Shown: piece by piece, positions 12,535 to 51,382 of the stretch
How the letters are laid out: every line of letters starts with the position of its first letter
Position numbering within the stretch: the stretch's first letter is position 1
Origin: Eledone cirrhosa
Lineage: Eukaryota
Length of the DNA: 64,000 nucleotides
NCBI GenBank assembly: GCA_964016885.1
Contig: OZ024745.1
Coordinates: forward strand, 57,784,001 to 57,848,000
Reading direction: 5' to 3'
The notes under the pieces: generated by a model
Databases searched by the model: none
What the model saw: the letters and a program-made list of their open reading frames with translations, nothing else
What the model was told of the DNA's origin: nothing
Program-made: the position numbers and the translations under genes

Positions 12535-12752
12535 TGTATGTATGTATTAAAACAGTTATGTATCAACATTTGTATATCTTACCGCAGTCAATTATCGAAC
12601 TAACCACAATAGTTTCGAAGTCATGGAATGGGCTTTATATAAAGCCAATTCCCTGACTTCGAAACAATTGTGATTAGTTCGACAATTGATCTACAGACTG
12701 CGGTAAGATATCATACACATGTTGATACATAACTGTTTTAATACATACATAC
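12535..12752. mobile_element. Palindromic element centred on an HHR stem-II-like hairpin
   Basis: Imperfect ~105-bp arms around ggctttatataaagcc (12631-12646); right arm reads tgacttc-GAAA-caattg-tg (palindromic stem III). Confidence 0.7.
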
Positions 12753-12788
12753 ATAGATACATACATACATACATACATACATACATAC

Positions 12789-15181
12789 TACTGCCAACAT
12801 GTCCAGACAAAACAATATGACATAGATGGGTCAATACTGGAAACAGCTCTACAGAAAATGTCGAATAGGAAATCGCCAGGCCCAGACCTCATTACAGGAT
12901 ACTGGTTGAAGAATTTCACTTTCTATCGGCAAGATCTCATACGGCTGTTTACAGAAACCATTAAGGGCACACAAGAACTGCCCAGATGGTTATCAACTGC
13001 CACTACTCTCCTCATTCCCAAAAATAGCCAAACCACCCTTGCTAAAAATTACCGCCCAATTGCCTGCCAAAACATCATGTATAAATTATATACTGGGTGC
13101 CTTAACCTGTTCTTACAGGATCACTGTGCTACCAACAACATCATAACACCTGAGCAAGCTGGTGGAAAGAGGGAGGTGTGGGGTTGCATAGATCACCTAC
13201 TAACTAACAAAATGATTCAGGAAAAAACAACAAAGAATCGCAGAAACAAGACTGTCGTGTGGCTGGACTATCAAAAAGCATTTGATAGTGTACCTCATGG
13301 GTGGATTATTAAGGCTTTACAGTTAGCTAAAGTCCCACAACCATTAGTAGCTGCTGTTGAACGCCTGACCAAGAACTGGTACACCAATTTGATCCTTAGA
13401 GGTGAGAAGGAGCAGGTTAAGACTGATAGGATACATTACCAGAAGGGCATCTTTCAGGGTGATAGCTTGTCAGTACTATTCTTCGTTCTCTCACTGAATC
13501 CACTATCTTACCTACTCAGGAAACAAGGTGGACAAAGAAGTGGGCCCAGAAGTATCTCCCATCTTTTCTTTGTTGATGACCTGAAGTTGTATGGGCCAAA
13601 TATCAATGACATCAAGAAACAATTGGACCTCATTACACAATTTTCAACCGACATCAAAATGAAATTTGGTGAGTCCAAGTGTGCATATTTGGCAGTAAAA
13701 CGTGGAAGAGCTGTGCCCTCCTCTAGAAATCTAGATATGAACGGCCTGACAATACAACCTCTGCAGTCAGGTGACAACTACAGATATCTTGGACAGGATG
13801 AGAATGTCAGATATGATGGACCCATAAATAAGGAGAGAACCAGAACTGAATACCTCAGAAGAGTAAAAAAAATATGGTCATCAGAACTGTCAGCATACAA
13901 CAAATACATTGCCCACAATACCTATGCTGTGCCAATTATAACGCCAACATTTGGCCTACTGAACTGGTCATTGCAAGAACTAAGTGAGATGGATGTTAGA
14001 ACTCGTAAACTTCTCAGTGTTACTGGGAACTTTAACATCAATGGTGATGTGGATAGGCTATACTTCTCACGCAAGGAAGGTGGCCGGGGTCTAAAATCAA
14101 TATTAACAACATATGAGACCCGGATAGTAACACTGAAGCAACACCTTCAACAGAGGAAAAAGGTTGGCGACCATCTTGCTCAGGTTTATGAGCATGAAAA
14201 AAGAAATATCATTAGAATAGCGACTGATCTGGAGGAGAGATATGGAATAAAGCCTGATATAAATCTCTCACCCAGAGAAATCGGAAGATCCTATTCAATG
14301 TTCAAACAAGAAAAAAAAATTGACCAATTTACAGAGAAAGTTGTGCATGGATACTTGAGGCGTAAAACACAGACCATAGAGGGGATAAACCACTCAAAAA
14401 GCCTGGCATGGAGTTCCGACAAGTTTATGACATCACACCTTGAGGGATATCTCTATGCAATACAGGAACAAGAACTCCCTACCAAATATCTGCTGCACAA
14501 AAGAGGAGGGCCAGCAGCTGACAATAAATGTAGGCTATGTAAAACAAAGATCGAGGATGTAAGCCACATTGTTGCCAGCTGCGAAAGAATGTCATCTCGC
14601 TACTACCTCCCCATGAGACACGATGGGATAGCTAGAACTATCTGGAACGCACTTCGGAAAACAAAATTAACAACAAACGAGGAAGAATATATTGAGACAG
14701 ATGGCACTAAGGAATACTGGTGGAACCTGAAAATAAAAACTGCCACCAAATTAAAGCACAACCGGCCTGATATTGTAGTTTGGGACCACACATTGAAAAC
14801 GTGTTCTGTTGTGGAGATCAGCTGCCCACTTGATGTAAACGTTGTCAGAAAAATACAGGAGAAGGAGGACATCTACGGACCATTGATGAGGAGCTTACAA
14901 ATCCAGTATCCAAGATACACCTTTAGCTTCATACCCATCATTATTGGTGCTACGGGTTATATACCAACCCGCTTGGACCAAAGTATGACCGAACTTGGAT
15001 TTGCGGACAAAAAGCGCAGCTCCCTAATTCATAGTCTACAAATGGCTGCGATAGCTGGCACCTTCAAAATATGCAAAACATTCTTGCGATTCAAGGGATG
15101 ACAATTTCTTTTCTTTTACAACCTTGCCACCAGGAAGGTGGCCGGTCAAAAAAATATACTCGAAATTAAGAGAAAGAGAAA
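12789..15181 (+). mobile_element. 5'-truncated R4/Dong-clade RLE non-LTR retrotransposon inserted in (TACA)n
   Basis: RT-CCHC-RLE ORF with short 3' UTR; (CATA)n arrays at 12742-12788 and 15182-15245. Confidence 0.85.
12858..15101 (+). CDS. Reverse transcriptase + CCHC knuckle + restriction-like endonuclease (747 aa, uninterrupted, N-terminally truncated)
   Basis: KSPGPD, NYRPIAC, LDYQKAFDSVPH, GIFQGDSLS, LFFVDDLKLY, YRYLG, EGGRGL, CRLC..HIVASC, RHD, RPDIVV..VEISCP..K. Confidence 0.92.
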   Translation: MSNRKSPGPDLITGYWLKNFTFYRQDLIRLFTETIKGTQELPRWLSTATTLLIPKNSQTTLAKNYRPIACQNIMYKLYTGCLNLFLQDHCATNNIITPEQAGGKREVWGCIDHLLTNKMIQEKTTKNRRNKTVVWLDYQKAFDSVPHGWIIKALQLAKVPQPLVAAVERLTKNWYTNLILRGEKEQVKTDRIHYQKGIFQGDSLSVLFFVLSLNPLSYLLRKQGGQRSGPRSISHLFFVDDLKLYGPNINDIKKQLDLITQFSTDIKMKFGESKCAYLAVKRGRAVPSSRNLDMNGLTIQPLQSGDNYRYLGQDENVRYDGPINKERTRTEYLRRVKKIWSSELSAYNKYIAHNTYAVPIITPTFGLLNWSLQELSEMDVRTRKLLSVTGNFNINGDVDRLYFSRKEGGRGLKSILTTYETRIVTLKQHLQQRKKVGDHLAQVYEHEKRNIIRIATDLEERYGIKPDINLSPREIGRSYSMFKQEKKIDQFTEKVVHGYLRRKTQTIEGINHSKSLAWSSDKFMTSHLEGYLYAIQEQELPTKYLLHKRGGPAADNKCRLCKTKIEDVSHIVASCERMSSRYYLPMRHDGIARTIWNALRKTKLTTNEEEYIETDGTKEYWWNLKIKTATKLKHNRPDIVVWDHTLKTCSVVEISCPLDVNVVRKIQEKEDIYGPLMRSLQIQYPRYTFSFIPIIIGATGYIPTRLDQSMTELGFADKKRSSLIHSLQMAAIAGTFKICKTFLRFKG

Positions 15182-15580
15182 ACATACATACATACATACA
15201 TACATACATACATACATACATACATACATACATACATACATACATGATGGCTGCCCCCTCGTTATCGAGTATGGCCATTGCACGAGAAATAAAAATAATA
15301 ATAATAATAAATAAATAAAAAGAAAATTAAAAAAAGAGAAATATATATATATATATATATATATATATATATATATATATATATATATATATATATACAT
15401 ATACACACACATATACACACACACATACATTAATAACAATAATAATAATAATAATAATAATAATAACAACAATAATAATAACGACAACAACAATAATAAT
15501 ATACATATACATATATATATACACACACACGCACACACATAAGCATATCTACACACACTCACACACACACACGATAGCAA

Positions 15581-49082: not shown

Positions 49083-50939
49083 ATAATTTATTTTTATTGG
49101 TCACAAGGGCTGATACATGAAGTACAATACAGAATATCGTATACAAAATACAAAATATATGACAACACGTAGGGAGTGCTACCCATGGATGCATCGGGAA
49201 ATACATTAATTATAAACCACCTTATTCCCCAGAAGCACCTAGGAGCACCAATCTTTTCTGTCTAAAGGTGTGTGGTTATAGTAGGTTGATATATACAATT
49301 ATCCTAGCTACATTCACCAACCTCTTAACACTCTTGCACTCTTACCCTCCCATTCCTTTCCATGTGGAAAATTGATGAGGGCTTGGCCGAGCCCACCATA
49401 CAGTTACTTTTGCAAAAGCCACCAGGAAGAGGAAATCTGATGTTGTTATCAGTGCAGCTGTTGTTGTTTTCGATGTTGCAGTTGGTGTTGTTTCTAACTT
49501 CGTTGTTGCTCTTGGAGTTGTTGTCGTTGTTCTCTTTACTTGTATAAATGTTTTTGTCATAACTGTTGTTGTTGTTGCTCATGTTTGTGGTGGTTTTAAA
49601 TTTGTTGTTGCATCTTGTGTTTGTAATTATATATTTTTTTTATTTTGTGTCTAGAATGGGGCTTGATGTTGTTGCGGTATCCCTCCTCTCAATGTTTAAG
49701 TTACCGTCACGCGACAGGGTGGGTGGTATGCCATGCCCACCTGTTTTTCTTCTTCAGAAAAATAAAGTTTAAAGTTTAAACTTCCAAATAGTTGGGCCAA
49801 AAGGCCTAAAAATTAAAAAAAGAAAACACCCCTTCACAGAGCAAAAACTTAGGATATTTTTGCTTAGGATCTTTTTGCCAAAAATATAACAATTAATACA
49901 AATGCAAAAGTCTTGAAAATGCACTACCTTGATGAGAAGAAATTCGTCATATCAAACCATCACATACCTCATACACCTGATAGAGAATCATTGGTATGTG
50001 AATGTACATGTATCCAATGAAATAAAATTGGTGATATTAAAAATAATTTTTTCAAAGGAATTAAAAGAATAGAACTTATTTTGAAAATAATAATTAGTAT
50101 CTGCAAAGGATAGTGCACTGATAACAAATTACCATTCACAGATAAATAGAACAAAATAAAAAATGTTAGCGAAGTAATTTCTCAAATATTCTATGATGTT
50201 TGCAGCTAAATAACTACATCACAAAAACAAAATACGAAACCGATGTTACTTGCAAATAGTTTATATGAATAGACAACACAGAACAAGAAATTCTGGGAGA
50301 TAATCAAACGAAATTCACTACGGAAATTCAGCAATCTAAAAAAAATAAAATGAAAGGAAAAATGTGTTCATATTAGTTTATGCAGAAAAGCGATACTTTA
50401 ACATACATCACGGTAACAAAAACGAAGTAAACAAATAAAAAAATTGAGAAGCTAAAATGTACGGAACTATCGATTAAAGAACAAAGAGGATTCAGCGCAA
50501 ATGTTGTAAAGAATTTAGAAAACAAGTAAATATTATAATATTTATTGGCTTGATATCAAAGGAGAGGTTTCAAAGATGTGTACTTGCGTATATAATCACG
50601 TAGAAATCAGATTTGGAAGTTTTCACAATTCAAAATTTAGTTATAGAAAAGCAGATATGGTGGTATGCCGGTCAATGATATCAATAAACGATTCTACATA
50701 GCAGCATGATCGATTATTCAGAATACACAACATGTTCTATATAAATGAAATAAACTTGGTCTGGACAATTGGAATTGTTTCTTTGTTTTTTTTTTGTCTT
50801 GCTACTGTTGTTCTTATTGTACTATTCAATGTATGAGGGTTGGTAGATGCGCTCAAGATCATAGAGCAAGCACACAAATAAATAAATAAATATATATATT
50901 TATGTGTGTGTGTGTGTGTGTGTATGTGTGTGTGAGTAT

Positions 50940-51060
50940 GTATATATATATATATATATATATATATATATATATATATATATATATATATATATATGTA
51001 TATATATATATATATATATATATATATATATATATATATATATATATATATATATATATA
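50940..51060. repeat. (TA)n microsatellite
   Basis: Direct observation. Confidence 0.95.
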
Positions 51061-51382
51061 TAAATTAATAAAATAATGAATAAACAAAGAAACAGTTCCT
51101 TATATTAAAAAATTCATCATTTTACGATCGTTTCTAGGATATATATGTTAGTGTTGGTGTGCATATCCTATAGATCTAGAAACGATCGTAAAATGATGAA
51201 TTTTTTAATATAAGGAACTGTTTCTTTGTTTATTCATTATTTTATTAATTTATCTTGACTCTGTTTTCCGTTAATTTTCACCGAAAAAATTTTTTGAATA
51301 CGTCTCTTTTCATGATATTCGGATTACATTGAGTTCTTCATACGGATTGGACACTACCGTACATTTTGGTAGATTTATCTAC
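51060..51382. mobile_element. Palindromic element centred on HHR stem II, between (TA)n tracts
   Basis: Perfect 78-bp arms 51060-51137 / 51176-51253; right arm starts cta-GAAA-cgatcg-TA; spacer holds taggatat/atatccta stem. Confidence 0.8.

What the first reader, a model, noticed from the sequence alone, without database searches (positions are those of the whole stretch)
12535..51253. Five palindromes fold back at the hammerhead stem II hairpin
Seen: at 12.64, 22.6, 38.69, 45.91 and 51.15 kb the symmetry centre is a hairpin immediately 5' of GAAA-stem III. The CUGANGA half is replaced by a mirror copy of the GAAA/stem III/downstream sequence. The five sequences are unrelated, and 45.9 kb is demonstrably the pLTR of the 35-38 kb PLE. 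Inference: after copying stem II of an uncleaved HHR, the nascent cDNA snaps back on its own hairpin and self-primes second-strand synthesis. This would be a ribozyme-structure-directed route to PLE 5' inversions and MITE-like palindromes.
Basis: inference. Interest (0 to 1): 0.8.

Follow-up and report, generated by a model that had tools for sequence, protein, structure and literature searches.

The report
Penelope palindromes meet at RNA start
These mirror-image stumps are head-to-head ends of Penelope-type jumping genes, and in the commonest family thousands of them join at one spot inside the ribozyme fold, likely because the RNA begins there and two separately primed DNA copies run off its capped end and get joined, not because one copy snaps back on the hairpin.

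Summary
Four of the five palindromes are clear; 22.6 kb is a decayed, marginal one. 45.9 kb is the pLTR of the 35-38 kb element, a Hydra-like PLE (family A). In family A the stem II hotspot is real: 60,041 exact arms, 11,605 palindromes joined within stem II, 1,295 arms with the core upstream. Snap-back on the native hairpin is not supported. The native loop is kept in 1 of 58 palindromes. The tail-less arm often reaches further in than the arm it should copy (14 versus 7). Arm ends peak at an A in an initiator-like TTAGT, 231 nt before the ORF. Copies ending there on (TA)n carry a non-native G in 79 of 100 listed, against 2 of 100 at neighbouring C positions. This is the known cap signature. 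Likely mechanism: transcription starts inside stem II, two target-primed cDNAs from two fixed start sites run off the capped end and are end-joined. Other families show scattered junctions, many upstream of an intact core. No RNA data could test the start site. The scan noted twin priming earlier on other DNA of this genome; none of the 16 notes shown to me mentions the extra G.

The parts
45833..46061 (+). Family A palindrome: tail-less inverted arm (outer end at +40 from the G of GAAA), rearranged centre with templated inserts, tailed direct arm to +123; (TA)n on both sides
   Evidence: 132 of 143 bases match the 3' pLTR
38029..38225 (+). 3' pLTR of the family A PLE with whole hammerhead fold: core CUGAGAA at 38039, long stem II, GAAA at 38102, stem III, cleavage triplet; element ends at +40 (38142) or +123 (38225)
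38081..38086 (+). Initiator-like TTAGT inside the 3' strand of stem II; A at 38084 (-18) is the inferred capped RNA start (same base at 45922, and at 35535 on the minus strand)
   Evidence: modal inner end of both arms; non-native G before it; start site itself inferred, no RNA data
35595..36860 (+). C-terminal half of the PLE ORF (RT motif YRDD, linker, GIY-YIG-like endonuclease), frameshifted
   Evidence: no Pfam hit
34778..35592 (-). Inverted arm of the 35-38 kb element: pLTR from -90 reading through the tail into the ORF start (ATG at 35304, +213), with RWR and DKT motifs
38590..38791 (-). Family B palindrome; arms end about 50 and 29 nt before GAAA (38650, minus strand), native core lies at -67 and is lost
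51060..51253 (-). Family E palindrome; arms end at -44 and -3 and share a 3-nt overlap; native core CUGAAGA is at -112 before a stem II of about 105 nt
22548..22680 (+). Decayed family F palindrome; long arm keeps a decayed core at 22607; symmetry not significant alone
12519..12767 (.). Old singleton palindrome (arms about 83% alike), GAAA at 12661; hammerhead origin not verified
43323..43667 (.). Counter-example: family C palindrome with a whole CUGAUGA hammerhead in both arms
63661..63973 (.). Counter-example: family C2 palindrome with the hammerhead in both arms, centre well upstream of the core

Best explanation
The palindromes are head-to-head insertions of Penelope-like element ends, and in family A they join inside stem II likely because the element's capped transcript begins there and two separately primed cDNAs run off that end and are then end-joined. 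Steps: (1) shown: one arm stops at +40 and the other at +123, both on (TA)n. (2) Inferred from PMC11167929: these are two reverse-transcription start sites, used from nicks on the two target strands. (3) Shown: both inner ends peak at A(-18), with a non-native G before it. (4) Inferred: that G is the copied cap of an RNA polymerase II start, 231 nt before the ORF, so copying from the 5' pLTR yields short run-off cDNAs of about 58 and 141 nt. (5) Inferred: the two 3' ends are trimmed and joined with 0-4 nt overlap or templated filler. The ribozyme fold is a bystander: in families whose RNA extends further, junctions fall elsewhere.
For: Outer ends bimodal: 96 of 226 arms at +38/+40 and about 108 at the tail end. 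Tail-only query, blind to the inversion: 23 of 29 copies end at -7 to -33, 4 stop 3' of GAAA, 2 reach the core (hand count). Genome-wide 60,041 arms, 11,605 palindromes, 1,295 with core. 45 of 58 palindromes have both ends at -10 to -22; mode -18 for the short arm, -17/-18 for the long. Short arm further in 14, long arm 7 of 58. Base before A(-18): G 5,420, A 890; before A(-13): G 917, A 789. Directly on (TA)n: 79 G, 13 A, 8 C in the first 100 of 232 (hand count); at C(-14)/C(-15): 2 G in the first 100 of 251. ORF ATG at +213. Extra G as cap mark in L1: PMC11702581. Both strands nicked and extended, two start sites, dimer: PMC11167929. Internal TATA-less promoter in Penelope: PMC2377424.
Against: The start site is read from DNA only. 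17,065 of 27,951 arms that reach -18 continue with the native T, so -18 is a peak, not a wall. C before A(-18) is nearly as common as G genome-wide (4,576); part is the mirror of a central G or the other arm's last base, but I did not account for all of it, and among spacer-bearing junctions G and C were 6 and 7. About 13 of 30 G junctions can be explained by the opposite arm. The extra G also occurs at A(-13): 30 G, 8 A, 23 native C of 61; I read it as a minor start, after the fact. Inner ends of the two arms correlate (rho 0.50) and arms share subfamily variants (59 of 59 and 64 of 67), which snap-back also predicts. One of the 14 short-further cases (L073) is an indel artefact. Only one other family (G) showed a G excess, a weaker one (46 G, 35 T, 19 A of 100 listed; 1,122 non-native against 5,981 native).
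Confidence: 0.66

Rival explanations
1. Two separately primed cDNAs are joined, but they end in stem II because the enzyme stalls in the RNA helix, not because the RNA begins there.
For: -12 to -24 is the 3' strand of the upper helix of stem II (fold). 61% of arms reaching -18 go on with native T. Ends are spread over -10 to -22.
Against: Does not explain a non-native G that appears at pyrimidine-A positions and not at adjacent C positions. Families with longer, more stable stems show no peak, e.g. E with a 105-nt stem; pooled B, C, D, H: 22 ends in stem II against 26 in an equal stretch upstream (hand counts, tested).
Confidence: 0.15
2. One reading: the cDNA copies stem II, folds back on its own hairpin and self-primes the second strand.
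For: Arms share subfamily variants and their inner ends correlate. 51.15 kb has a 3-nt overlap that allows fold-back. Self-priming was proposed for such junctions in PMC3846280. Central deletions after insertion could trim either arm (own knowledge).
Against: Native loop kept in 1 of 58; short arm further in 14 of 58; 35 of 58 with no room for a loop; short arm's modal end is the template's inferred last base. Fixed +40 outer end is unexplained. Some loci have arms that barely overlap (L079, L103, L152). Many palindromes keep the core (23 of 49 with a half-hammerhead).
Confidence: 0.07
3. The RNA 5' end at -18 is real but is made by processing (cleavage with re-capping, or splicing), or the G is a base the enzyme adds when it runs off any end.
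For: Would also give a run-off peak with an extra base. An intron ends beside the hammerhead in D. virilis Penelope (PMC4209133).
Against: -18 is not the hammerhead cleavage site (about +21). The G is confined to pyrimidine-A steps, the usual polymerase II start context (own knowledge), and sits a 5' UTR's length before the ORF.
Confidence: 0.1
4. One ancestral palindrome was amplified as a MITE-like unit, or the palindromes are assembly artefacts.
For: High copy number, short size, terminal inverted repeats.
Against: 70 distinct centres among 74 palindromes, in several subfamilies. Arms are unequal in a fixed way (+40 against +123) and have diverged from each other.
Confidence: 0.02

Closest known systems
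EN+ Penelope-like element insertions with inverted 5'-truncated pLTR, one-sided tail and junction palindromes (PMC3846280, passages and Discussion read; PMC8557442, passages read)
   Same: Head-to-head inverted pLTR, tail on one arm only, AT-rich targets, palindromic junctions.
   Different: There the palindromes are read as self-priming on an antisense template. Here arm symmetry and an extra G point to two sense-strand run-off cDNAs. Tail is 83 nt, not 30-40.
PAc (Poseidon, Anolis) in vitro mechanism (PMC11167929, parts 1-2 of 4 read)
   Same: Two internal start sites that define the tail, both target strands nicked and extended, predicted dimer, hammerhead cleavage not needed.
   Different: The parts read do not treat 5' junctions, inversions or a start site inside the ribozyme.
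Hydra clade of PLEs (PMC8557442, section 11 read)
   Same: RWK-like and DKT motifs, CxxC and CxH around the conserved E and N, C-terminal endonuclease, (TA)n targets.
   Different: Family A core is CUGAGAA rather than canonical; no tree was built.
L1 twin priming and the extra G of full-length L1 insertions (PMC11702581, passages read)
   Different: In L1 the second primer anneals at variable internal sites; here it starts at a fixed site and both cDNAs copy the same 58 nt up to the 5' end.
Minimal hammerheads of PLE pLTRs (PMC4209133, passages read)
   Same: Type I topology, large helix II, U3-A8 core variant (families F, G), pairs of motifs on opposite strands.
   Different: Family A has a C3-A8 mismatch, and its inferred 5' copy of the ribozyme would be cut in half by the transcription start.

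Membership tests
EN+ Penelope-like elements | Single ORF with RT and C-terminal GIY-YIG endonuclease | tested here: inconclusive
   Motifs visible and 75 homologues of 553-970 aa, mostly about 700, with the same order, but no Pfam hit and the homologues are almost all unnamed
EN+ Penelope-like elements | pLTR overlapping the element's 5' end, repeated at the 3' end | tested here: met
   Same 200 nt precedes the ORF start and ends the element
EN+ Penelope-like elements | Inverted 5'-truncated copy and one-sided tail | tested here: met
Hydra clade | RWK motif and DKT in place of DKG | tested here: met
   LRWR and SDKT in the window ORF; MRWK/VRWK and ADK(T) in homologues
Hydra clade | CxCX5C linker | tested here: inconclusive
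   Window copy reads CxCX3C; the three homologues printed read CxCX5C
Hydra clade | CxxC and CxH either side of conserved E and N | tested here: met
Hydra clade | Insertion into (TA)n | tested here: met
   113 of 133 tail ends run straight into TATATA, most others into near-TA
Hydra clade | Canonical hammerhead | tested here: not met
   CUGAGAA in 1,295; CUGANGA at that spacing in 29 hits, about 8 of them family point variants
Hydra clade | Phylogenetic placement; absence of the CCHH motif | not tested
   no tree or reference alignment made
Type I hammerhead ribozyme | Stems I-III, GAAA and UH triplet | tested here: met
   Families A, B, E, G by sequence and fold; not verified for 12.64 kb; no hammerhead among the 150 of 181 Rfam matches listed
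Type I hammerhead ribozyme | Self-cleavage | not testable with these tools
   needs an in vitro assay
MITE | Uniform copies amplified from one master | tested here: not met
   70 distinct centres in 74 palindromes
L1-type twin priming | Inverted and direct segments adjacent, not duplicated; variable internal priming | tested here: not met
   Arms duplicate -18 to +40 and the second start is fixed

The most novel reading that the evidence does not exclude
PLE 5' inversions are the routine product of a dimeric enzyme priming from both target strands at two fixed RNA sites and running both cDNAs off the capped 5' end, like paired strong-stop DNAs. The junction then records the transcription start of each family at base resolution. 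In family A the promoter has moved inside the hammerhead, which removes the ribozyme from the 5' pLTR, goes with a decayed core, and turned the 5' UTR into a factory for tens of thousands of palindromes.
Probability: 0.45. Interest if true: 0.78.

Novelty: new variant of a known kind. Interest (0 to 1): 0.57.

Why it matters
How PLEs, the closest mobile relatives of telomerase, build their inverted and tandem insertions is described as undefined in PMC8557442, and self-priming is the standing proposal (PMC3846280). A family with over 11,000 independent junctions tests it: the data favour two sense-strand run-off cDNAs. The model can be tested in the existing in vitro system with capped and barcoded templates. 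It also explains a large class of genomic palindromes that could be mislabelled as MITEs or microRNA-like hairpins, and gives a way to read transcription starts of dead elements from DNA.

Tried and rejected
Rfam listed no hammerhead among the 150 of 181 matches shown. Pfam found nothing for the PLE ORF or five homologues above its cut-offs. No RNA holder listed. Contigs of three runs of unknown kind were laid on 45830-46060; none spans it, and contigs cannot show starts. No relatives found for 12.64 kb. The genome search for the 51.15 kb arm returned nothing; its relatives came from the local sample. loci were chosen with a query that includes the core and loci with the extra G, so the first cannot give truncation frequencies and the second were left out. 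A(-13) was meant as a negative control and was not one; C(-14)/C(-15) were then tested. A de novo k-mer screen for capped starts found only family A, and its input held the G-selected loci, so it adds nothing. In one search my 'extra base beyond a spacer' test was not informative (6 G, 7 C). The half-hammerhead descriptor is loose: 53 of 165 palindromes outward, 18 inward; many of the 20 'core absent, other' rows are chance or have a decayed core. A search for the CUGAGA core in print gave nothing relevant. A last scripted tally of the tail-only set and of significance tests was not obtained; those counts are by hand.
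Full report
Setting. The window lies in a 3.0-Gb, microsatellite-rich genome; I did not identify the organism. Coordinates such as -18 or +40 count from the G of the hammerhead GAAA.

Observation. Four palindromes beat all 300 shuffles by a wide margin; 22.6 kb does not. 45.9 kb matches the pLTR at 38029-38225 (132 of 143). The window also holds two larger palindromes, at 43.5 and 63.8 kb, with a whole hammerhead in both arms. So the five were a selection. In 1.26 Mb (window plus 120 unselected 10-kb stretches) I found 165 palindromes. 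Of 49 with an outward half-hammerhead within 160 nt, 23 keep a core in an arm, 6 are family A without core, and 20 others lack a detected core, many by chance match or decay.

The element. The 35-38 kb insertion is itself head-to-head: a minus-strand arm with pLTR and ORF start (ATG at 35304, +213) and a plus-strand arm with the rest of the ORF and the 3' pLTR. Motifs fit the Hydra clade as described in section 11 of PMC8557442, but I built no tree and Pfam is silent. Its hammerhead has a long stem II and the core CUGAGAA: 1,295 exact hits against about 8 family copies with CUGANGA. That is a C3-A8 mismatch; related copies show the U3-A8 variant known from PMC4209133. Activity is untested.

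The hotspot is real in family A. With a query from the tail alone, blind to the inversion, 23 of 29 copies end at -7 to -33, 4 stop 3' of GAAA and 2 reach the core (hand count). Genome-wide there are 60,041 exact 17-mer arms and 11,605 palindromes with at most 30 nt between them. Centres differ in 70 of 74 cases, so these are independent insertions. Outer ends are bimodal, +38/+40 and the tail end at +123, matching the two start sites shown in vitro for PAc (PMC11167929).

Snap-back fails its predictions. In 58 palindromes not selected for the extra G, the native loop survives in 1. The tail-less arm reaches at least 3 nt further in than the tailed arm in 14 (one an indel artefact), the reverse in 7. 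A fold-back copy cannot hold sequence that its template lacks. 35 have 0-2 nt between arms or up to 4 nt overlap. Both arms peak at -17/-18. Against this reading: inner ends correlate (rho 0.50) and arms share subfamily variants, as snap-back also predicts; one RNA copied twice, or two RNAs from one source, predicts the same.

Why -18. It is the A of an initiator-like TTAGT (motif likeness from my own knowledge), 231 nt before the ORF. The base before it is T 17,065 (native), G 5,420, C 4,576, A 890. Before A(-13) G and A are 917 and 789. Because the opposite arm can supply a G or C (about 13 of 30 G cases), I looked at arms that abut (TA)n directly. At -18 the first 100 of 232 matches are 79 G, 13 A, 8 C (a few are tandem copies of one locus). 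At C(-14)/C(-15) only 2 of the first 100 of 251 have G. At A(-13), also a pyrimidine-A step, 30 of 61 have G; I read it as a minor start. The start site remains inferred: no RNA run was listed. Unexplained: the excess of C, and the 61% of arms that continue past -18.

Other families. Inner ends in B, C, C2, D, E, G and H (13-51 arms each) are scattered. Pooled B, C, D, H give 22 ends in stem II and 26 in an equal stretch upstream (hand counts). 38.7 kb (B) and 51.15 kb (E) do break within stem II, but those stems span about 60 and 105 nt and lose their 5' strand. 22.6 kb keeps a decayed core. Family G has a compact U3-A8 hammerhead and a cluster of ends about 60 nt before GAAA, upstream of the ribozyme, with a milder G excess. 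So the junction follows something family-specific, not stem II.

Model. Shown: two fixed outer ends, symmetric inner ends, extra G at pyrimidine-A positions, ORF downstream. Inferred: a dimeric enzyme nicks both strands of (TA)n and primes at +40 and +123 of the 5' pLTR; both cDNAs run off the capped end; the ends are trimmed and joined. Confidence 0.66.

Literature. Read: PMC11167929 parts 1-2 of 4; PMC3846280 passages and Discussion; PMC8557442 passages and section 11; passages of PMC4209133, PMC2377424, PMC11702581, PMC13282606, PMC7151607; abstract, outline and a term search of bioRxiv 10.64898/2026.07.22.740005. No supplements were read; those of PMC11167929 (end mapping) and PMC8557442 may bear on the 5' junctions. 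Eight searches listed no paper that ties PLE inversion junctions to a capped start or to stem II; subscription papers are not held. Inverted pLTRs, junction palindromes and the tail are known. Earlier notes of this scan reached twin priming on other DNA of this genome; I saw them after my own tests, and they are not independent support.

Verdict. Observation partly confirmed, proposed mechanism not supported, a better-supported and testable one found. New variant of a known kind; interest 0.57.

Noticed in passing
window 61415-61779 and 62085-62320: Large palindrome of family H whose centre lies 3' of GAAA, with further tandem copies carrying a whole CUGAUGA hammerhead.
   Followed up: partly
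window 588-941 and 2348-2948: Inverted terminal repeats of 354 nt around a second PLE-like ORF fragment (1590-2387), with a 125-nt unit repeated three times.
   Followed up: no
window 46814-47689: 333-nt inverted arms, 98% complementary, with an extra inverted piece between them; family not determined.
   Followed up: no
window 45893-45920; L194:4959-5109; L281: Centres with templated, strand-switching filler copied from the arm ends, suggesting repeated priming and release before joining.
   Followed up: partly
L131, L283 (family E): Hammerhead with canonical core and an unusually long stem II of about 105 nt.
   Followed up: partly
window 12726-15101: 791-aa RT ORF with RVT_1 and zf-RVT hits, starting right beside the 12.64 kb palindrome; a different non-LTR element.
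   Followed up: no
L042, L071, L077, L160: Family A junctions filled with poly(T)/poly(A) runs at about -21, where the template has a short T run.
   Followed up: no
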